A stretch of DNA of 64,000 bases from a virus. The notes below the pieces were generated by a model. It ran no database searches, had not been told where the DNA came from, and was given only the letters and a program-made list of their open reading frames with translations. Shown here piece by piece: positions 7,967 through 59,724 of the stretch. The position numbers and the translations under genes were made by a program. The stretch lies in the IMG/VR virus record IMGVR_UViG_3300043172_000590, positions 13,827 to 77,826 of that record. The stretch is one strand, 5' to 3'. Positions within the stretch are counted from its first letter, which is position 1. The number at the start of each line of letters is the position of its first letter.

Positions 7967-7996
7967 TTTGTTTTTCTGATTTTTGTGGTACTTTTG
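7967..7996 (+). promoter_or_regulatory. Bacteroidota primary-sigma promoter (-33/-7)
   Basis: TTTG-N18-TACTTTTG in an intergenic region. Confidence 0.7.
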
Positions 7997-8418
7997 AGGT
8001 GTTAATCACAGGTGGATTAGAATACGCCTCAAAGAGAATACGTCATGAAAATCGAGAATAATTTACATTCTATAATAAATCCGACCTTTGGCTTGACGTA
8101 TGCTAATTCTAAGGGGTCGGATTTTTCTTTTTCTTTCTACGATACGTAAGGCTACACACGAAAGGTAGATAGAACAAACTACTCAAAATATAGTTTCACA
8201 CCGAAAAAAGGCAGCGCTTATTGCGCGCGTTTTGCTGTTTAAATTGTAGTATGATTTCTGGGTACTTATTTTCTGCTACGAGCCTCAACCGATTCCTCGA
8301 TTGTTTATACGGATGATATGGTACAGATAACTACTCTTCTTTCTGGGAGGGGGAGGGGTACTTATCTTTTTTACCTTCCCTTCAAACCTCTTCATGTTTA
8401 CCGGATAACACGCATACA
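7997..8418 (+). ncRNA. structured ~420-nt leader with a 34-codon uORF (8045-8149) and terminator-like hairpin (8077-8124)
   Basis: no long ORF; AAATCCGACCTTT/AAGGGGTCGGATTT hairpin plus U-tract; further stems up to ~8390. Confidence 0.55.
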
Positions 8419-8850
8419 ATGAAAAAGAAAGGCAAACATCAAGTATCAAAAGAGCTGAAACAACGAAAAGCAAATAGAACTAAGGCACGTAAATACTCAG
8501 GACAATTAAAAAGACGAATCACAAGAGCTGAAAGAATGGTTAAGAGCATCTTGGATGAAGATGGAATAATCTACACTTTTCAGAAACCATTCTACTCACA
8601 TAATTGTTGTTATATTGTCGATTTCTACTTTGAAAATAAACTAGGAAGGAAATACATAATTGAGCTAGACGGCAAGACTCATAATCGACACACTAAAGCA
8701 TATGATAAGAATCGATCATTTTTCTTATATCACAAAAAGGAATGTGCTGTCATTAGGTTTAGAAACGAGGATGTATTCAATGATATCGACAAGATTATAG
8801 ATAAAATTTATAGCTTACACCCCCAATGTATTGATGATATTTTTATGTGA
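8419..8850 (+). CDS. DUF559/Vsr-like PD-(D/E)xK endonuclease
   Basis: T.AE, YIVDFY, IIELDG.TH, YD..R, VIRF.NEDV motifs. Confidence 0.85.
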   Translation: MKKKGKHQVSKELKQRKANRTKARKYSGQLKRRITRAERMVKSILDEDGIIYTFQKPFYSHNCCYIVDFYFENKLGRKYIIELDGKTHNRHTKAYDKNRSFFLYHKKECAVIRFRNEDVFNDIDKIIDKIYSLHPQCIDDIFM

Positions 8851-41086: not shown

Positions 41087-42265
41087 TTATTGAGCTGGCT
41101 TTCCGAACATTTCGTTGATTCTATCCTCAACGGTTTTCTTCTCTTTACCTCCTACGATTGGCTCCTTTTTGTTTAAACCTACGCCAGCGTTATCATATTC
41201 TTTACGCACCTCATTTTCGGTCTGCGTCTTAATATGAGAACTAAGTGCTGCGAAAATCTTTTCGTAATTATCACCAATCATAGTTTTCAATAAATCTTCC
41301 TGGATATCCTTCTGTCCCTGTTCTGTTTGCAAGTCGTAGTATCCATCCATCACATCCTCGATAATACCTTCCTTGTAGTTGCCCTTTGATGCATCCTCTG
41401 CATTAAATTCAAATACAAATCCGTCATACTCCACTTTATTTACACTTGATACAAACTTTTCCGCAGGGGCCGTGAGAGTGTCCCTCTTAGCTTTAATGTC
41501 CTCCATTGAAGCTGTTTTATCTTGGGTTAATTTTTCCAAGATATCATCACCCTCGGCCTTCGGCAGTTCGACATCACCTCCGATTTGAGAAAGCTTTTGT
41601 CGCTCGGAATGAGCCGCATTCTTTATAATATCATTTTCAAGAGGAGTCCTTTCGTACCCCTCGGTCAATATGTCTTCAACATTCAATCCAAGCTGCGACA
41701 GTTTAACTCCCAGTGGGTTAGAGGTGCCGTTTGCAGAACTAAGTTTTGCACTTAATGTCAGCACGTCCATATCGTCCATTTTCGCAACATCAGATCTCAT
41801 TACCTCATTCAATACACCTTCTTTTCCGGAATATGCCACATCTTTCGATAATTGTGCAGCTTTGTATGCTGTCTCGTCAGGGAAATATGACAATACATCA
41901 GATTGTCCTTTGAGTTTTTCGATTAATGCATCGACATGTCCGGCTTTTTCTTGTAATCCCGGCATTCCCTTGTATGCTTCTGCGACAGCAGCGAAATCAT
42001 CAACACTTGCTATCTCTAATCCTGTTGCTTTATTGAAGAATTCTAGGCGTTGTTCTGTAGTGAAGGATTCGTAATCCGCCGGATTAGCTGGATCGGCTGG
42101 ATCGGCTGGATCGGCTGGATTAGCTGGATCGGCTGGATCGGCTGGATCGGCTGGATTAGCTGGATTAGCTGGATCGGCTGGATCGGCTGGATTAGCTGGA
42201 TCGGCTGGTTTTTGTTCTCCTAAAACTGCATCTCTAATTTGCTTGTCGATCTCTTCTGTTGTCAT
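41087..42265 (-). CDS. capsid scaffolding protein
   Basis: acidic protein between portal and MCP; PAD/PAN repeat. Confidence 0.75.
   Translation of the reverse strand: MTTEEIDKQIRDAVLGEQKPADPANPADPADPANPANPADPADPADPANPADPADPADPANPADYESFTTEQRLEFFNKATGLEIASVDDFAAVAEAYKGMPGLQEKAGHVDALIEKLKGQSDVLSYFPDETAYKAAQLSKDVAYSGKEGVLNEVMRSDVAKMDDMDVLTLSAKLSSANGTSNPLGVKLSQLGLNVEDILTEGYERTPLENDIIKNAAHSERQKLSQIGGDVELPKAEGDDILEKLTQDKTASMEDIKAKRDTLTAPAEKFVSSVNKVEYDGFVFEFNAEDASKGNYKEGIIEDVMDGYYDLQTEQGQKDIQEDLLKTMIGDNYEKIFAALSSHIKTQTENEVRKEYDNAGVGLNKKEPIVGGKEKKTVEDRINEMFGKPAQ
42074..42208 (-). repeat. 9-bp tandem repeat x15 encoding (PAD/PAN)15
   Basis: ggatcggct/ggattagct units counted directly. Confidence 0.95.
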
Positions 42266-53772: not shown

Positions 53773-53898
53773 CTATTGTTTTATTATCTTATTATTAGTG
53801 CTTTTACAGATTGGGCAAGCAGCAGCGTTAGCCTGAGATGCAATAGTAACAGGCTGATGCCATACAGTCCTGCATATATTGCATTCTCTTTTGTCCAT
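53773..53898 (-). CDS. 41-aa zinc-ribbon protein
   Basis: hand translation MDKRECNICRTVW...CPICKSTNNKIIKQ. Confidence 0.6.
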   Translation of the reverse strand: MDKRECNICRTVWHQPVTIASQANAAACPICKSTNNKIIKQ

Positions 53899-53904
53899 GA
53901 GAGG

Positions 53905-54234
53905 CTATATAATCTCGCTTAAAGCGCCTCTTGTGTTTGCGAGTGAGTCATTATATCCGGAAAGCAGGTCAATGCAATCATTTAGCTCTCCTATTACGCC
54001 GTCTCTCTTAGTTTTTTCTTTGTCATTTTCCGGGATAGGTACTTTGAAGTTTTTTAGCTGAGATACTTTGCCTGCTATGGCACCAGAGTTTTCGGCAGTC
54101 CTTTGTAACTCGTTTTTAAATCTGTCTAGAATAGCCCCAAATTCAGGAACCTTTTCTGTGATTTCGTTTGTATCCATTTTGTTCAGCGTTTTTACGTTCA
54201 GGTGCACATAGTCTACTGTTGTACATCTGGACAT
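53905..54234 (-). CDS. hypothetical coiled-coil protein
   Basis: 109-aa ORF; start uncertain. Confidence 0.55.
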   Translation of the reverse strand: MSRCTTVDYVHLNVKTLNKMDTNEITEKVPEFGAILDRFKNELQRTAENSGAIAGKVSQLKNFKVPIPENDKEKTKRDGVIGELNDCIDLLSGYNDSLANTRGALSEII

Positions 54235-54262: not shown

Positions 54263-55234
54263 CTATACAAAATCAGGCCCATCTTCTTTTTTTGTATCGG
54301 TACCTTTCTCGGCAATCTCACCTGTCTCCTTGTTGACGTTTTCAACCTTATCGACTGGTTTTTTATTTGCTACATCCGTCTTGACGAGCTCCTTCTTTTG
54401 TGCATTGGAAGCTCCGTCAGGTTTGTTTGTTACAATTTCTGCATCCTCTATGTTATCGAATCCGATAGCCACAATATTTCGCTTCTTGTCCTCATTGTTT
54501 TCTTCGGACAAATCATCAGCGTCGTTCCTCCCCTCTAGCAGATGGGCATCGTTAGAACTGTTGATAATGGATTTACACGCTCGGCTCTTGACAGTTTTAA
54601 TGCACATTTGGTCGGTAAATTTAGTATGCGCAGGGGAGTTCCCTTTTGCAGCTCCCATCATCCAAGCAGCCTTTATTTGAGCCATAGACATATCTTCAAT
54701 GTATAATGTCCCATCATCCATTTCCTTAACGGCATACGCTCCAAGAATCGCATTCTCTCTATTTTCAAATGGTTTTTCTTCCGGGGTTTCGTGCTTCACT
54801 AAAACCTTCCTACCCTTTTCTGTCCTCTTGGTTATATAAACATCTCCCTCTCTAACCACCTCTCCTTCTATTTCTTTCAGCCCAACTCTTTTTGCGACAG
54901 CAACATCTCCTTGATAGCTACGCATGAGAGTAAGTTCTGTTCCGAACACCACGAAGTAGCATTGTTTTTTAACGGGATTGAGTCCTTGCACCACCATGTC
55001 AAACAGAGAGTTGGCAATGCTTGCTTTAGAGCATATTTCGAGGGCTTTTTTCTTGTTCCGGTCCTCCACGTTCTGTAGTATCAGCCACGCAGATTTTAAT
55101 GCATTACCTGAACTGTAATTTTTCGGAAGGACAAGATCCTTAGAGTTCTCCATGTCTGCCACTCTTTTCGTTACGATATCAACTATGTTTGGCTGTGCTA
55201 CCGTAGTTTTGTTTTCGTTTGATTTTGTTGTCAT
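54263..55234 (-). CDS. recT: RecT-family single-strand annealing recombinase
   Basis: SIANSL.DMVVQGLNP.KKQCYF, RSYQG, DQM..KTV..RACK. Confidence 0.9.
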   Translation of the reverse strand: MTTKSNENKTTVAQPNIVDIVTKRVADMENSKDLVLPKNYSSGNALKSAWLILQNVEDRNKKKALEICSKASIANSLFDMVVQGLNPVKKQCYFVVFGTELTLMRSYQGDVAVAKRVGLKEIEGEVVREGDVYITKRTEKGRKVLVKHETPEEKPFENRENAILGAYAVKEMDDGTLYIEDMSMAQIKAAWMMGAAKGNSPAHTKFTDQMCIKTVKSRACKSIINSSNDAHLLEGRNDADDLSEENNEDKKRNIVAIGFDNIEDAEIVTNKPDGASNAQKKELVKTDVANKKPVDKVENVNKETGEIAEKGTDTKKEDGPDFV

Positions 55235-55249
55235 GCTATTTATTTAAAA

Positions 55250-55462
55250 TTATTTAGTTGTTCTCTCAATACTCCATATTCTCCCCGCTTTGATAAAAAT
55301 GTTTATTGTCCTGAGATTCCATCCCCATATGAATGCAGAAGGATAGACTTTGTGTCCGACAAACAAAGACGGCTCGTTCTCTAGTATATATACCACATCG
55401 TTCATTCTTTCCAGTTTGTTTTTTAGAACGAAATTCTTTGAACATTTATCTCCTTTTTTCAT
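55250..55462 (-). CDS. hypothetical protein
   Basis: 70-aa ORF. Confidence 0.55.
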   Translation of the reverse strand: MKKGDKCSKNFVLKNKLERMNDVVYILENEPSLFVGHKVYPSAFIWGWNLRTINIFIKAGRIWSIERTTK

Positions 55463-55465
55463 TTA

Positions 55466-55846
55466 TTAGAGATTTATGGGAATTACCACTTCTTCTATCT
55501 CAATCATCTTTCCAGCAAACTGCGCTCTATCAAAAGAAGTGGGATTGGTTATACCAATCTTATCCTTATAGCACATTGCAGCAGTAACTAATTTAAGCCA
55601 CGATCCGAGCCCGTTATAGTATCTGCCACTTTTCTTGTCTTTAACGATAAATCCCATTCCTTCATTATTTATCATACTAAAAGCCCTCCTCAGAAGACAT
55701 ATAGACTCCAAGTGCCCTACTTTGTGTTTATGGATGAAATTAATCACCTCTCCAAGTTGCCACTCGTCTTTTGTTAAGGCACACTGCCTGCCTGGGTAGC
55801 TGTTAATAATAGACTTAAATAAGTCTTGTATTTTATGCTCTTCCAT
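55466..55846 (-). CDS. hypothetical protein
   Basis: 126-aa ORF. Confidence 0.6.
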   Translation of the reverse strand: MEEHKIQDLFKSIINSYPGRQCALTKDEWQLGEVINFIHKHKVGHLESICLLRRAFSMINNEGMGFIVKDKKSGRYYNGLGSWLKLVTAAMCYKDKIGITNPTSFDRAQFAGKMIEIEEVVIPINL

Positions 55847-55931
55847 ATTCTAGTAATTATATAATGGGCATAAGCCTCTGTATCCGTGATATCCTACATC
55901 TATAATTTTCCGGACATCCTTCCCGGGTTCT

Positions 55932-56075
55932 TCAATGATATGCTATAACTATAAAACCCACAAATAGTACGTGCAATACGAGAACACTAGCTATAATAAT
56001 AATATATATGCCATTTTTATCTTCTGAGTTAGTCCTCCTTAAGGAGCGTTTCACTACTAATTTTATACATTCCAT
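55932..56075 (-). CDS. 47-aa single-TM membrane protein
   Basis: hand translation MECIKLVVKRSLRRTNSEDKNGIYIIIIASVLVLHVLFVGFIVIAYH. Confidence 0.5.
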   Translation of the reverse strand: MECIKLVVKRSLRRTNSEDKNGIYIIIIASVLVLHVLFVGFIVIAYH

Positions 56076-56095
56076 ATTTCAATTATTTTCATATT

Positions 56096-56503
56096 AAGAC
56101 CATTATCCCTGCAAGAGGGAAGGAAGGTCTGACATCCGATATAAAGACCTACAATGTGGGTTTAAGACTTGCCTGGTTCTGCTCCCTGCTGTCGCGATTC
56201 TTTTAGTTCAACAGCAACACGATTTGCCATACGGTTTTTACAGAAATGTTTGTTTTCATTCACTCCCTTGCAGGTCTTCCGTTACGGTCAGATACGGAAA
56301 CTTTGCATTAACAAACATACAAGTACCACTACCGACTTTGATTACCCTCGATATAATCAGGGATGGAGGTCTCGCTAAACTCCGTAAGGACAGCCGAAGT
56401 AAGCACAACCATTACGACCTGAGAAGTAAAGTTTCCCCAGCCATCCAAACGGAATTAATATTTTATTTGTGAGATTCATAATAAGTTGTGCTTATTCAAC
56501 TGC
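56096..56503 (-). ncRNA. structured ~410-nt leader with a 34-codon uORF (56479-56375)
   Basis: AATTCCGT..GGATGGCTGGGG/CTTCGGCTGTCC..ACGGAGTT stem with G-U pairs on -; further stems 56144-56278 and 56097-56130. Confidence 0.55.
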
Positions 56504-56505
56504 CA

Positions 56506-56535
56506 CAAATCTACACATAAAATCTTTAAATCAAA
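56506..56535 (-). promoter_or_regulatory. Bacteroidota promoter (-33/-7)
   Basis: TTTG-N18-TAGATTTG. Confidence 0.7.
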
Positions 56536-56558
56536 ATAATTAAGAACGATTTTAAATA

Positions 56559-56629
56559 GCAGAACGAGCGATTATCCCCTTCTCGTTATCTCTACCTCCG
56601 TTATCTGGGTGAGGCACTTTTTGTTCTGC
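56559..56629 (-). ncRNA. small structured RNA (array unit F)
   Basis: GCAGAAC/GTTCTGC closing stem; three GATAA repeats inside. Confidence 0.4.
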
Positions 56630-56712
56630 ATGTTACGAGTCTGCAACGCTTCGAGTGTCTGAGCATCCGCAAATTTCCCAATTACTATATTGCTCATTTT
56701 ATCCGGATAGCG

Positions 56713-56817
56713 TGGAGAAGCAAGGACTCGAACCTCGATGTAACCATCACACTAACGAGCAGTTTCCAGCATCAAAGCCTTCGGTGTCTCCTACTTACAT
56801 AATGTGCTACCTTCCCC
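56713..56817 (-). ncRNA. tRNA-like RNA (acceptor stem plus T-arm, atypical D/anticodon region)
   Basis: GGGGAAG/CTTCTCC-A acceptor with G3-U70; CGAGG-TTCGAGT-CCTTG T-arm; no encoded CCA. Confidence 0.7.
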
Positions 56818-56849
56818 TGATTCCCCGTCTTTCCGGGCTGTCAGTGTTT

Positions 56850-56964
56850 GTATAGATTTTAGCGTATGATTACCTCTATCAACGAAGGCCCCCTATCCAC
56901 TAATTAAGCAATGCCATCTATACCGTCAATCCCTAACACCTCAGAGATTCTGCTTGATAGGGTA
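56850..56964 (-). ncRNA. possible pseudoknotted RNA (array unit E)
   Basis: crossing stems 56850-57/56916-23 and 56871-82/56954-64. Confidence 0.35.
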
Positions 56965-56975
56965 TGATGTTTTCT

Positions 56976-57072
56976 AAAAACAGAGAGGGTCGATATTTAT
57001 ACATCCAGACCTCGACTGGGATAGTTGGTTTTAATGAGACCGCTCTAACTCGTTTTTTACCTCTCTGTTTTT
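56976..57072 (-). ncRNA. small structured RNA (array unit D)
   Basis: perfect 13-bp closing stem AAAAACAGAGAGG/CCTCTCTGTTTTT. Confidence 0.55.
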
Positions 57073-57120
57073 TCGCAAATAATGATCCAACACATTATAG
57101 ACGAACTATCAATATTTTCA

Positions 57121-57340
57121 AATCTGACCGTCTGCCGGGACGGGATACTGTAGGCGTGGATTCCTTGTGCTTTTGACATGGTTATTACACAGCTATTGCC
57201 TAGGCCCCACTGGTATCTCACCAATTGCCAATATCTCTCCACCAAACACGCCACTGGCAATGACTAGCAACTTTTTTTCATCGTTAATCAGATGGTGCCG
57301 CACAAAATGTACCGCCTGCTTGTTTGTTTTCGACCAGATT
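57121..57340 (-). ncRNA. ~220-nt structured RNA (array unit C)
   Basis: AATCTGGTCG/CGGTCAGATT closing stem (G-U pairs favour -); inner ATTGCCAGT/ATTGGCAAT. Confidence 0.45.
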
Positions 57341-57351
57341 ATACTTTAAAG

Positions 57352-57441
57352 AACAGGGAGCGGAGTTTGTGCATGCGCTAGCTTTCTCACGAATTGTTTA
57401 TCCACACTATCCAAGGGTCGCACCCTTTGCAACTCTCTGTT
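57352..57441 (-). ncRNA. small structured RNA (array unit B)
   Basis: AACAGAGAG/CTCCCTGTT ends; inner AAGGGT/ACCCTT hairpin. Confidence 0.45.
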
Positions 57442-57471
57442 TATATTTTCAATGAACGAATAATCAAATAT

Positions 57472-57609
57472 AAGATGCTTCTATTCTTATCGCCCCATTC
57501 TCTCTTTGTTGTTCCAAATACTGGCAGTGGGCAACTTTAGTCTATCATATCCTCCACAGGGAACAATCCCCAATCAAATTACTACGATAAGCGTCAAACA
57601 AAGCATCTT
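57472..57609 (-). ncRNA. rod-like ~140-nt RNA (array unit A)
   Basis: nested stems AAGATGCTT/AAGCATCTT, CTTATCG/CGATAAG and TTGTTCC/GGAACAA. Confidence 0.55.
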
Positions 57610-57642
57610 TTTCTCGCATACTACAGGTTTGTCTTCAAAAAT

Positions 57643-59724
57643 CTATTTAATCAATAATTTATAATAAGGTTTTCCTTCTGCATGAATGCTATTTCCCTTC
57701 TCGTCAGTATCAACAATACATGCTGGACACTTAGGATTGTTAATAAGTATCTCCCCGCATTCAGGGCACTTGTAGAGTTTCGCCACTCTTAGGTTTATTA
57801 TCTGGGATCTCGTCTCAATAATCTCATTTGTTGACTCCCTATTGTCGATGAATATGGGAGCGCTAGCATCATCGAACTTGCATATCTCATTAATAACTTC
57901 CATACCGGCATTAACCCTCTTTGCATCGTTGGCATCCTGGTATGGTACGCCATCAAGTAGTCCGATACAGCATTGTTCAAAACCACCATTCCCAAGCTCT
58001 TTGAACATTTTAAATTTGATGCCGGAAAATCTTTCATTGACCCGATTTTCGAGTTCGGTATATTTTTCTGTCTCAAATCTCTCAACAACCATCAGCTCTT
58101 TTTCCTTCGATGCAAGATTACTCTCTATTCCCTTCTTCTCATTTGTCAGCTCCAATACCCGGTCATTATCCTTTTGGATATCGTCACGAACCCTAAGATC
58201 TTTATTGATTGCTCCGATTTTAGTCTGTAGTTCAGATTCCTTGGATGTCAGTTCGGTGTCAGTTTCAGGCTTGTTGTTCTCGTCGAAATGCTCAATCTCA
58301 TTTTTCAATACACTCAGTAACTTATTTAGCCCAATAAGAGTGACATCGCCAGAAAGTGCCTCTTCCAAATTCTCTTCCTTGATAGGATTAGCGACAAGCT
58401 CCTTTAATTCCCCTTCGGAAACATGTACTGCAGCTTTTGCGGCTTCTCTCTTATCTTCCAGTTCTGTTATCGCGGACTTAGCATCATCTATTTTCTTAAC
58501 AATCGCTTTACCTTCCGTATTGATGAGGGCCTTTCCATCAATAACAAACTGGCTGAAATCTACTTTCATAGACTCCTTTTTCTCCTCTATATCCCCTTCT
58601 GGCAACGATTGCTTGCAGGCAGGGCAGGTAAATTCACTATCATTAAACTTGAGGCTCTTTTTATTTATTTCTGCCCAGTCTTCTAAGAGAGTTTTTTTAT
58701 TGGCGGTAAGCGTTTCTACCTTTCTTTCGCAGAGACCTATATCCATTGTTAGTCCAGGAATCTTATTGCCAGACATTTTGATTTGTCCCTCTGCTAATTC
58801 AATCTTTTTCTTATGCGCCTTATATGCAATATTTAGCCCTTTCCCAATATCCGCCTTTCTGGATTCAATATCTAACTCTATCGGGCCTTTTTTTCTTACA
58901 AGCGCAAGTTTCTTATTTGCAATGCCTTCCTCAGCTTTCGAAGCATCGAGTATTTTTCCGCTAACAGTCCCTTTCTCTTGAGTCAATACAAGCAGATATC
59001 CTTCTAATTTATTCCAATCAAGAACCTCCGGTATTTTACTCAACCTTTCTTTTATCGCAGAACCCTTGTCTTTCAACTCGTCCTTAAGCTTAGCAATAGA
59101 GGCTTTCACGCTTTTTTTATAGAGATCCATGCTTTTACCGTTCAGGATATCAAGCATCTTGATAAACTCCTCGTTGTTTTCTGCAATATCAGCATCAGTG
59201 CGTTCTCCGCCAGACATCTTAGCGAGCATTGCCCGTCTCTTAGCCCAAGGGACCTGCTTGTTGTCAAAAAAGTATAATGGGTTTGTAATCAACTTAAATA
59301 CTTCTTCGCTTATGATTGCTGAGACATACGCATTGTATTCGCCGATATTAACCGGGACGCCATCGTACCAACACAGAGTTTCGTTGCCTTTGAATACCTC
59401 CTCTTCTTTCCCTTTGGGCTTTACCCATTTTTCTTGGAGTGCCCTCTTAAGAATAGTTTCTCTTCCATCCAAGAGTAAGACACCTTCGACAGAATGGACC
59501 ACTCTTGACATTGGAATATTATTCTCGTCCAATGTCTTTATTGAGAAGTCGTGATTTCCAGCTGCATCCTTACCGAATAGGAGCCAAGTGAACCCATTGA
59601 GCTGAGTGCTCTTGAATGTTCCGTTGTCTCCCCATATATCCGTAATATCTTTATTGTAATTTACTTCGAGGTTTATCGCCCCCATGAAGTATGAAAATTT
59701 TAAGCTCTTAACTATTGCTTCCAT
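57643..59724 (-). CDS. SbcC/Rad50-like coiled-coil ATPase
   Basis: GDNGTFKST Walker A, long coiled coil with CPAC hook, PIFIDNRES Walker B, extra C-terminal Zn ribbon. Confidence 0.9.
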   Translation of the reverse strand: MEAIVKSLKFSYFMGAINLEVNYNKDITDIWGDNGTFKSTQLNGFTWLLFGKDAAGNHDFSIKTLDENNIPMSRVVHSVEGVLLLDGRETILKRALQEKWVKPKGKEEEVFKGNETLCWYDGVPVNIGEYNAYVSAIISEEVFKLITNPLYFFDNKQVPWAKRRAMLAKMSGGERTDADIAENNEEFIKMLDILNGKSMDLYKKSVKASIAKLKDELKDKGSAIKERLSKIPEVLDWNKLEGYLLVLTQEKGTVSGKILDASKAEEGIANKKLALVRKKGPIELDIESRKADIGKGLNIAYKAHKKKIELAEGQIKMSGNKIPGLTMDIGLCERKVETLTANKKTLLEDWAEINKKSLKFNDSEFTCPACKQSLPEGDIEEKKESMKVDFSQFVIDGKALINTEGKAIVKKIDDAKSAITELEDKREAAKAAVHVSEGELKELVANPIKEENLEEALSGDVTLIGLNKLLSVLKNEIEHFDENNKPETDTELTSKESELQTKIGAINKDLRVRDDIQKDNDRVLELTNEKKGIESNLASKEKELMVVERFETEKYTELENRVNERFSGIKFKMFKELGNGGFEQCCIGLLDGVPYQDANDAKRVNAGMEVINEICKFDDASAPIFIDNRESTNEIIETRSQIINLRVAKLYKCPECGEILINNPKCPACIVDTDEKGNSIHAEGKPYYKLLIK

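What the first reader, a model, noticed from the sequence alone, without database searches (positions are those of the whole stretch)
56096..56535. Leader element 2: promoter, 34-codon uORF, loop-pairing hairpin and structured tail; architectural twin of 7967-8418
Minus strand: TTTG-N18-TAGATTTG promoter, then TAAGCACAAC 5 nt before an ATG (56479) that opens a 105-nt uORF. The uORF runs through a ~20-bp hairpin whose loop contains the exact 10-nt complement GTTGTGCTTA (56400-56409). About 280 nt of further stems follow (AAGACCTGCAA/TTGTAGGTCTT, TTCCGT/ACGGAA, terminal AGACC/GGTCT) before a 47-aa TM gene and the RecT operon. The element at 7967-8418 has the same promoter spacing, uORF length (105 nt), loop-to-start complementarity and total length, yet no sequence similarity I can see. 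Known analogues are P1 c4/icd, P4 CI/kil and the IncI repYZ pseudoknot. Inference: a conserved translation-coupled RNA switch family in Bacteroidota phages.
Basis: partly seen in the sequence, partly recalled or inferred. Interest (0 to 1): 0.75.

Follow-up and report, generated by a model that had tools for sequence, protein, structure and literature searches.

The report
Self-occluding leader RNA hairpin in phage
Just after a host-type promoter inside a marine phage's recombination operon, the first ~125 bases of the transcript can fold so that its 5' end and first start codon are locked away; this fold is clearly real on paper, but it is an orphan, and the claimed twin element and conserved phage family are not supported.

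Summary
Only the first ~130 nt beat chance. Window 56378-56512 (minus strand) folds at -43 kcal/mol, z -4.9, 0 of 200 shuffles.

The 10-nt complement is the core of a 33-pair long-range helix, A. It buries the predicted transcript start and the AUG at 56479. Both folds rely on G-U pairs, and B exists only on the transcribed strand, so this is an RNA-level feature.

- **280-nt tail:** marginal (z -1.6).
- **34-codon ORF:** codon usage of a spurious ORF; not called by gene finders.
- **Twin at 7967-8418:** it shares the promoter consensus and ORF length. It holds a plain terminator hairpin, and its loop-to-start pairing is within chance (5-9% of shuffles).
- **Homologues:** none found in any collection, and no Rfam match.
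- **Context:** the element lies in a 2.4-kb insertion that Cellulophaga phage relatives lack.

Best reading: a cis-acting, possibly bistable leader controlling the 5' end and first AUG of the RecT-operon transcript (confidence about 0.4).

The scan noted similar 5'-end-to-loop leaders in other Bacteroidota phages. These are AI notes, and membership was not testable here.

The parts
56506..56535 (-). Bacteroidota sigma-ABfr-type promoter, TTTG (-33) N18 TAGATTTG (-7); predicted transcript start about 56501-56498
   Evidence: Pattern scan, (3 full matches in 64 kb, 2 of them in ORF-free DNA facing genes). Consensus as described in PMC7366714. The start site is inferred, not shown.
56476..56509 (-). 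5' arm of long-range helix A. It holds the predicted transcript start, UAAGCACAAC (56494-56485) and the AUG (56479-56477).
   Evidence: RNAfold pair list. In a 600-nt transcript the pair probabilities are 0.86-1.0 for 56494-56476 and about 0.2 for the outermost pairs 56500-56497.
56381..56417 (-). 3' arm of helix A, lying inside codons 22-33 of the small ORF; contains GUUGUGCUUA (56409-56400)
   Evidence: 33 pairs of which 7 are G-U. Fold -43.0 kcal/mol, z -4.88, 0 of 200 shuffles.
56419..56472 (-). Two small hairpins enclosed by helix A, forming a three-way junction
56377..56456 (-). Alternative hairpin B (8 + 12 pairs, 35-nt loop at 56434-56400). It shares 56399-56381 with helix A. It forms when the start region is blocked or absent.
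   Evidence: -29.9 kcal/mol, z -4.33, 0 of 200 shuffles. The opposite strand gives only -11.4 kcal/mol, z -1.0.
56375..56479 (-). 34-codon ORF (the 'uORF'), probably not a gene in its own right
   Evidence: Its codon score resembles spurious small ORFs. It is absent from the 15-billion-protein collection. No Pfam or PHROG match.
56096..56373 (-). Remaining 5' untranslated stretch (the 'tail'); closed multibranch fold of marginal significance
   Evidence: z -1.64, 4 of 100; halves z +0.15 and +0.47
55932..56075 (-). 47-aa ORF with a C-terminal hydrophobic stretch of 24 residues; the first called gene after the leader; an orphan
   Evidence: called by gene finders; singleton cluster; no homologues; intermediate codon score

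Best explanation
A host-type (sigma-ABfr) promoter at 56535-56506 starts a transcript of the RecT operon. Its first ~125 nt form a self-occluding leader.

In the stable form, helix A pairs the 5' end and the first AUG (22 nt from the predicted start) with a segment 85-110 nt downstream. This locks both away. In the alternative form, hairpin B uses the same downstream strand and leaves the 5' end and AUG free. B can form only if the start region is occupied, for example by a ribosome loaded during transcription, or removed by processing.

The likeliest role is cis control of the 5' end, meaning protection from 5'-end-dependent decay or creation of a double-strand processing site. A second likely role is silencing of the first AUG. 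Together these would set how much of the early recombination transcript is usable.

Shown: the sequence features, the two folds, their statistics and their strand specificity.
Inferred: the start site, any switching, and any effect on downstream genes.
For: - Full consensus promoter in ORF-free DNA facing the operon (consensus from PMC7366714).
- Helix A: -43 kcal/mol, z -4.88, 0 of 200 shuffles. It is about the 7th-8th most stable locus among 10,360 windows of the genome.
- 7 of 33 pairs are G-U, and the opposite strand folds 11.6 kcal/mol worse.
- Hairpin B: z -4.33 on the transcribed strand against z -1.0 on the other.
- Loop-to-leader duplex: z -5, 0-1 of 2000 shuffles.
- The AUG pair has probability 0.995 in a 600-nt transcript. 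In the nascent RNA the start region is nearly unstructured (-2.3 kcal/mol) until about nt 90 is made.
- With the start region blocked, the fold switches to B.
- The base of the helix coincides with the predicted start. By my estimate this has about a 0.004 chance for 8 top hairpin loci and 4 consensus promoters.
- The 22-nt distance from start to AUG matches the modal Bacteroides 5' UTR of 23 nt.
Against: - There are no homologues, so covariation cannot be tested.
- Hairpin B ranks outside the top 20 loci of the 86-nt scan (about 1,800 non-overlapping windows), so at best top ~1%.
- No terminator follows, and the next gene starts 300 nt away with no predicted link to the hairpin.
- The outermost pairs of helix A drop to about 0.2 probability in long context.
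- The transcript start is only predicted.
Confidence: 0.4

Rival explanations
1. No function. The inverted repeat is a neutral leftover, for example of the insertion event that created this 2.4-kb zone. It happens to lie next to a promoter, and the ORF is random.
For: - The element is an orphan inside an insertion that relatives lack. The neighbouring ORFs are orphans too.
- The Watson-Crick core also scores on the opposite strand (z -4.18), as a DNA-level inverted repeat would.
- The tail and the twin do not exceed chance.
- The uORF has noncoding codon usage.
Against: - The G-U pairs and hairpin B are specific to the transcribed strand.
- The helix base coincides with the predicted start of one of very few consensus promoters.
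- There are two exclusive folds, each with z below -4.
Confidence: 0.25
2. The 34-codon ORF is translated, and its translation through hairpin B, gated by loop-to-start pairing (a pseudoknot), sets expression of the downstream genes, for example through Rho polarity. The element would belong to a family with a twin at 7967-8418.
For: - The ORF starts at a typical distance from the predicted start and ends exactly at the 3' foot of hairpin B.
- The loop complement is highly significant.
- The nascent RNA leaves a time window for ribosome loading.
- A pseudoknot with a ~10-pair loop helix looks sterically possible (my geometric estimate).
Against: - The codon score resembles spurious ORFs. Only 3% of real 34-codon gene segments score as low.
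- The uORF stop lies 300 nt before the next AUG, so there is no coupling by overlap.
- The twin fails the statistics and has a different structure. The peptides are unrelated.
- No family was found.
Confidence: 0.15
3. Hairpin B is cut out of the leader and acts in trans as a small antisense RNA against the start region of new transcripts from the same promoter. This would be an immunity-like circuit of the P1 c4 / P4 CI kind.
For: B is a stable 80-nt hairpin whose large loop carries 18-19 nt complementary to the start region. In c4/CI systems the antisense RNA and its targets also lie on one transcript (established knowledge).
Against: - No match to the Rfam C4 model or any other family.
- There is one continuous complement rather than two boxes.
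- No processing signals are recognisable, and there is no terminator.
Confidence: 0.07
4. A DNA-level feature: two inverted copies of a 10-13-bp site 85 bp apart, about 8 helical turns, bound by a phage regulator that loops the promoter region.
For: - An exact 10-bp inverted repeat, with one copy just downstream of the predicted start.
- The motif with up to 1 mismatch occurs 11 times in the window against 3.6 expected.
Against: - The site is not itself palindromic.
- Most other copies lie inside coding sequence.
- The pairing extends well beyond the Watson-Crick core through G-U pairs, which only matter in RNA.
Confidence: 0.05

Closest known systems
RNase III-sensitive leader hairpin of the phage lambda N gene (also the T7 early RNase III sites)
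   Same: A long, imperfect double-stranded hairpin in the leader of an early phage operon. It occludes the start region of the first reading frame. The helix of more than 20 pairs is long enough for RNase III (established knowledge; helix).
   Different: No sequence relation. The occluded ORF here is probably not a real gene. Cleavage is untested. The host is Bacteroidota, where translation initiation does not use a Shine-Dalgarno sequence.
Delayed-folding (kinetic trap) control of the MS2 maturation gene; 5'-terminal stabiliser hairpins such as the ompA leader
   Same: The start region is open only on the nascent chain and is closed at equilibrium by long-range pairing. The first nucleotides of the RNA are base-paired, as in 5' stabilisers.
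   Different: The partner lies downstream inside the ORF, not upstream. There is no experimental support here.
P1 c4 / P4 CI antisense RNAs (Rfam C4 family)
   Same: A hairpin loop complementary to a translation start region on the same transcript, in a phage early region.
   Different: No match to the Rfam model. One continuous 19-pair complement rather than two short boxes. The target lies upstream of the hairpin and belongs to the ORF that runs through it.
IncI/IncB repY-repZ leader-peptide pseudoknot
   Same: A leader ORF runs through a structure, and a hairpin loop pairs with a distant single-stranded stretch near a start codon.
   Different: There the pseudoknot activates the downstream gene, and the leader ORF overlaps that gene's start. 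Here the complement covers the leader ORF's own start, the next gene is 300 nt away, and no antisense promoter is seen.
Uncatalogued promoter-proximal leaders of Bacteroidota phages noted earlier in this scan (AI notes e1-3282400, e1-5906645, e1-3450722)
   Same: The start of the transcript pairs with the tip of a downstream hairpin, ahead of replication or nuclease genes, with each copy using its own letters (as those notes describe).
   Different: Those notes describe ~95-100-nt elements with a terminator-like hairpin and covariation in relatives. Here there is no U-tract, no relatives, and pairing that extends to 19-33 pairs. I had no model or sequences of those families to test membership.

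Membership tests
C4 antisense RNA (P1 c4, P4 CI) | Match to the family's sequence and structure model in Rfam | tested here: not met
   No hit at the gathering threshold in the window, nor at E up to 10 in 55800-56800
C4 antisense RNA (P1 c4, P4 CI) | Two loop segments complementary to two separate target boxes at the ribosome binding site of a downstream gene | tested here: not met
   One continuous complement to the start region of the ORF that contains the hairpin
C4 antisense RNA (P1 c4, P4 CI) | Processed to a stable ~77-nt RNA | not testable with these tools
   Needs northern blot or RNA-seq
IncI/IncB repY-repZ pseudoknot control | Leader ORF ends at or overlaps the start of the regulated gene (translational coupling) | tested here: not met
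   The uORF stop at 56375 lies 300 nt before the next AUG at 56075
IncI/IncB repY-repZ pseudoknot control | Antisense RNA transcribed from the opposite strand of the leader | tested here: not met
   No TAnnTTTG -7 box on the plus strand between 55205 and 58010. Other promoter types were not excluded.
Leader-peptide transcription attenuator (trp, pyrBI type) | Intrinsic terminator (hairpin plus U-tract) at or after the end of the leader ORF | tested here: not met
   No terminator-like site on this strand in 55900-56600. Hairpin B is followed by UUUAG only.
Leader-peptide transcription attenuator (trp, pyrBI type) | Mutually exclusive alternative hairpins whose choice depends on ribosome position | tested here: met
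   Helix A (-36.9 kcal/mol) versus hairpin B (-29.9 kcal/mol) when the start region is blocked. This is thermodynamic prediction only.
Double-strand (RNase III type) leader hairpin / 5' stabiliser | Helix of about 20 pairs or more that includes the 5' end or start region of an early transcript | tested here: met
   33 pairs with two single-base bulges and one 3-nt bulge. Core pair probabilities are 0.86-1.0.
Double-strand (RNase III type) leader hairpin / 5' stabiliser | Cleavage by RNase III, or a measured effect on half-life | not testable with these tools
   Needs in vitro cleavage or decay assays
Type I toxin-antitoxin (hok/mok-like) | Small hydrophobic toxin ORF with an overlapping leader ORF and a cis-antisense RNA | tested here: not met
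   A 47-aa hydrophobic ORF exists. However, the uORF does not overlap it and no antisense promoter was found.
Scan's uncatalogued 5'-end-to-loop leader RNAs of Bacteroidota phages | Transcript 5' region complementary to the apical loop of a downstream hairpin, beyond chance | tested here: met
   Duplex -22 kcal/mol, z -5, 0-1 of 2000 shuffles
Scan's uncatalogued 5'-end-to-loop leader RNAs of Bacteroidota phages | Terminator-like second hairpin, and pairing kept by matched changes in relatives | tested here: not met
   No U-tract. No relatives exist to test covariation. No look-alike was found by sequence in the scan's index.

The most novel reading that the evidence does not exclude
The element is a divergent member of an undescribed class of promoter-proximal leader RNAs in Bacteroidota phages. 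In this class the very 5' end of an early transcript pairs with the loop of a downstream hairpin. Here it would work as a co-transcriptional two-state switch: open while the first ribosome or a factor holds the start region, and closed for good afterwards. The switch would gate the phage's recombination and replication operon.
Probability: 0.2. Interest if true: 0.6.

Novelty: new member of a known kind. Interest (0 to 1): 0.33.

Why it matters
Post-transcriptional control in Bacteroidota and their phages is poorly known, because their mRNAs lack Shine-Dalgarno sequences and initiation depends on unstructured A-rich leaders. A leader that buries its own 5' end and first AUG, with a strong alternative fold that frees them, would be a simple and testable example of how these phages time early gene expression. 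As it stands it is a single orphan case supported only by thermodynamics. Its main value is as one more candidate to set beside the leader RNAs this scan has noted in other Bacteroidota phages.

Tried and rejected
Known RNA families:
- Rfam gave nothing at gathering or at E up to 10. The only hit was a weak tRNA-like match upstream of the element.

Searches for homologues of the element:
- blastn against 50,697 phage records found nothing.
- Exact and gapped DNA patterns in IMG/VR gave only chance hits or none.
- A translated-frame trick covering 56224-56472 found nothing in IMG/VR or in 185,000 species genomes.
- The two-arm pattern in the species genomes gave 10 hits, all chance. A miniature inverted-repeat mobile element is therefore unlikely.
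- 63 metagenome RecT loci are all at most 51% identical and share no nucleotide similarity.
- Close relatives sought via the ATPase, RecT and capsid proteins in IMG/VR: none.
- The closest RecT is 75% identical, with its first 110 residues identical.

Covariance model from the hairpin:
- No hit at the twin, in 65 loci, or in two whole Cellulophaga phage genomes.

Hidden or recoded gene:
- Codes TAG=Q and TGA=W open nothing convincing.
- The 124-codon stop-free plus-strand frame is not significant over the whole ORF-free zone (p 0.14).
- That frame has only repeat-protein pseudo-hits among 1.84 billion proteins and noncoding codon usage.
- There is no similarity to genes of phi46:3 or phi18:3.

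Other ideas:
- Riboswitch or ribozyme three-way junction: no Rfam match, and the junctions are only 1-3 nt.
- Type I toxin-antitoxin: no antisense promoter.
- The hairpin upstream of the HNH gene (53825-53910) lies inside a small zinc-ribbon ORF and is not a leader.
- The motif copy at 685 lies inside a small gene followed by a terminator.

Full report
**Context.**
- The window is bases 13827-77826 of a 77.8-kb IMG/VR phage record with direct terminal repeats.
- The genes around the finding lie on the minus strand:
  - an SbcC-like ATPase (57643-59724)
  - about 1.57 kb without long ORFs
  - ORFs of 47, 126 and 70 aa
  - RecT (54263-55234)
  - an HNH endonuclease
  - a metal-dependent hydrolase.
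- The nearest cultured kin by the ATPase are the Cellulophaga phages phi46:3, phi18:3, phi19:3 and phi13:2; the two records I opened, phi46:3 and phi18:3, are classified in Pachyviridae.
- In phi18:3 RecT follows the ATPase directly. In phi46:3 a single small gene lies between them.
- So 55235-57642 is an insertion zone peculiar to this phage.
- The 47-, 70- and 126-aa ORFs have no relatives in the protein collections.

**The observation.**
  - the promoter-like TTTG-N18-TAGATTTG
  - TAAGCACAAC 5 nt before the ATG at 56479
  - the 34-codon ORF
  - the exact 10-nt complement.
- The promoter matches the sigma-ABfr consensus of Bacteroidota: TAnnTTTG at -7 and TTTG near -33 (PMC7366714).
- Only 3 full matches occur in the 64 kb. 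That count is not itself enriched (2.0 expected). Two of the three lie in ORF-free DNA facing genes.
- Counting from the -7 box, the start should be about 56501-56498. This is inference.
- The AUG then lies about 22 nt downstream, which is the modal 5' UTR length in Bacteroides.

**The structure.**
- The stretch 56378-56512 (minus strand) folds at -43.0 kcal/mol. The z-score is -4.88, and no shuffle among 200 folds as well.
- The fold is one long-range helix of 33 pairs, 56509-56476 with 56417-56381. It encloses two small hairpins.
The AUG is paired (A56479-U56414).
- In a 600-nt transcript from the predicted start, the pairs of 56494-56476 keep probabilities of 0.86-1.0. The outermost pairs fall to about 0.2.
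- Seven of the 33 pairs are G-U. The opposite strand folds at only -31.4 kcal/mol.
- In a scan of the whole genome on both strands (10,360 windows of 135 nt), this locus is about the 7th-8th most stable after correction for G+C. The top locus there is an artefact of a 9-nt coding repeat.

**The alternative fold.**
It has 8 + 12 pairs, 56456-56435 with 56399-56377. Its 35-nt loop holds the complement.
- This hairpin B scores -29.9 kcal/mol with z -4.33 on the transcribed strand. On the other strand it scores -11.4 kcal/mol with z -1.0.
- Genome-wide, B is outside the top 20 loci of the 86-nt scan, so at best about the top 1% of windows.
- A and B share 56399-56381 and exclude each other as nested folds.
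- The loop-to-leader duplex alone is -22 kcal/mol, z -5, reached by 0-1 of 2000 shuffles.
- A pseudoknot of B with a ~10-pair loop helix looks sterically possible. That is my own estimate and was not computed.
- During synthesis the start region is almost unstructured (-2.3 kcal/mol) until about nt 90. Helix A then zips up.

**What does not hold.**
- *The tail.* The two halves of 56096-56377 fold like shuffles (z +0.15 and +0.47). The whole is marginal (z -1.64, 4 of 100).
- *The uORF.*
  - Its codon score (-0.02) is typical of spurious small ORFs. Only 3% of real 34-codon gene segments score as low.
  - Gene callers did not call it.
  - It has no family match.
- *The twin.*
  - The region 7967-8418 does have TTTG-N18-TACTTTTG and a 105-nt ORF.
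  - Its structured part is a plain terminator-like hairpin with a U-tract (8077-8124, z -3.7). There is no start-sequestering helix.
  - Its loop-to-leader duplex is reached by 5-9% of shuffles.
  - The two peptides are unrelated.
  - A covariance model of the element-2 hairpin finds nothing there, with filters off.
- *A conserved family.* No homologue turned up anywhere. Rfam has no match, including the C4 family.

**Is the stretch truly non-coding?**
- Alternative codes open nothing.
- A 124-codon stop-free frame on the plus strand (56098-56472) is locally unusual (p 0.006). Over the whole ORF-free zone it is not (p 0.14).
- That frame has no true homologues among 1.84 billion proteins, only summed weak matches to tandem-repeat proteins. 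Its codon usage is noncoding.

**Interpretation.**
- The solid core is a promoter-proximal RNA element of about 125 nt on the transcribed strand. It has two strong, mutually exclusive folds. The more stable fold buries the 5' end and the first AUG.
- The base of a top-ranked hairpin coincides with the predicted start of one of very few consensus promoters. By my rough estimate this has about a 0.004 chance.
- I read the element as a cis-acting leader. It would control the 5' end, either as protection or as a double-strand processing site like the lambda N leader. It would also silence the first AUG.
- A ribosome- or processing-dependent toggle to hairpin B is an inferred option.
- Nothing links the element to the next gene 300 nt away, and no terminator follows. 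An effect on the RecT operon would therefore have to go through RNA stability, processing or polarity. All of that is untested.
- A neutral inverted repeat remains a serious rival.

**Relation to earlier notes of this scan.**
- Notes on other Bacteroidota phages describe leaders in which the transcript start pairs with the tip of a downstream hairpin. These are unchecked AI notes.
- This element shares that one feature. It lacks the terminator-like hairpin and has no relatives.
- The scan's index holds no look-alike by sequence.
- A note on the neighbouring zone 56558-57609 reports conserved modules in related phages. I could not find such relatives for 56076-56560.

**Limits.**
The one close RecT relative and the other assemblies of this phage could therefore not be read.
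- All structural evidence is thermodynamic prediction at 37 C.

Noticed in passing
window 56572-56697 (-): A 41-aa ORF just upstream of the promoter, inside the 'ORF-free' zone. Its codon usage resembles real genes (score 0.20; only 2.7% of spurious small ORFs score as high). It was not called by gene finders.
   Followed up: partly
window 56713-56816 (-): A tRNA-like stretch with an acceptor stem and a canonical T-arm, a ~48-nt insert and no anticodon arm. It gives a weak Rfam tRNA match (17 bits, E 2.2) and ARAGORN does not call it. It is already the subject of another note of this scan.
   Followed up: no
window 7967-8140 (+): A consensus promoter (TTTG-N18-TACTTTTG) is followed 80-125 nt later by a canonical terminator hairpin with a U-tract (8077-8124, z -3.7). 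This layout would give a ~125-nt small RNA or an attenuator ahead of the gene at 8419.
   Followed up: partly
window 54263-55234 (-): RecT is mosaic. Its first 110 residues are identical to those of a 75%-identical RecT from a JGI contig, and the rest is diverged. This points to a recent recombination junction inside or just upstream of the gene.
   Followed up: no
window 42035-42260: The strongest 'hairpin' in the genome (-71.8 kcal/mol) is a self-complementary 9-nt tandem repeat. It encodes a (PAD/PAN)n run near the N-terminus of the 392-aa protein. It is an artefact for structure scans.
   Followed up: yes
window 53773-53898 (-): A 41-aa ORF with CxxC...CxxC spacing (zinc-ribbon-like) lies directly upstream of the HNH endonuclease gene. 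It contains a stable hairpin.
   Followed up: partly
window, 11 sites: TAAGCACAAC with up to 1 mismatch occurs 11 times against 3.6 expected (0 of 100 shuffles reach 11). Apart from the two copies in the element, most lie in coding sequence. This is unexplained and may reflect codon bias.
   Followed up: partly
window 56098-56472 (+): A 124-codon stop-free frame antisense to the leader. It is locally unusual (p 0.006) but not over the whole zone (p 0.14). It has no homologues and noncoding codon usage.
   Followed up: yes
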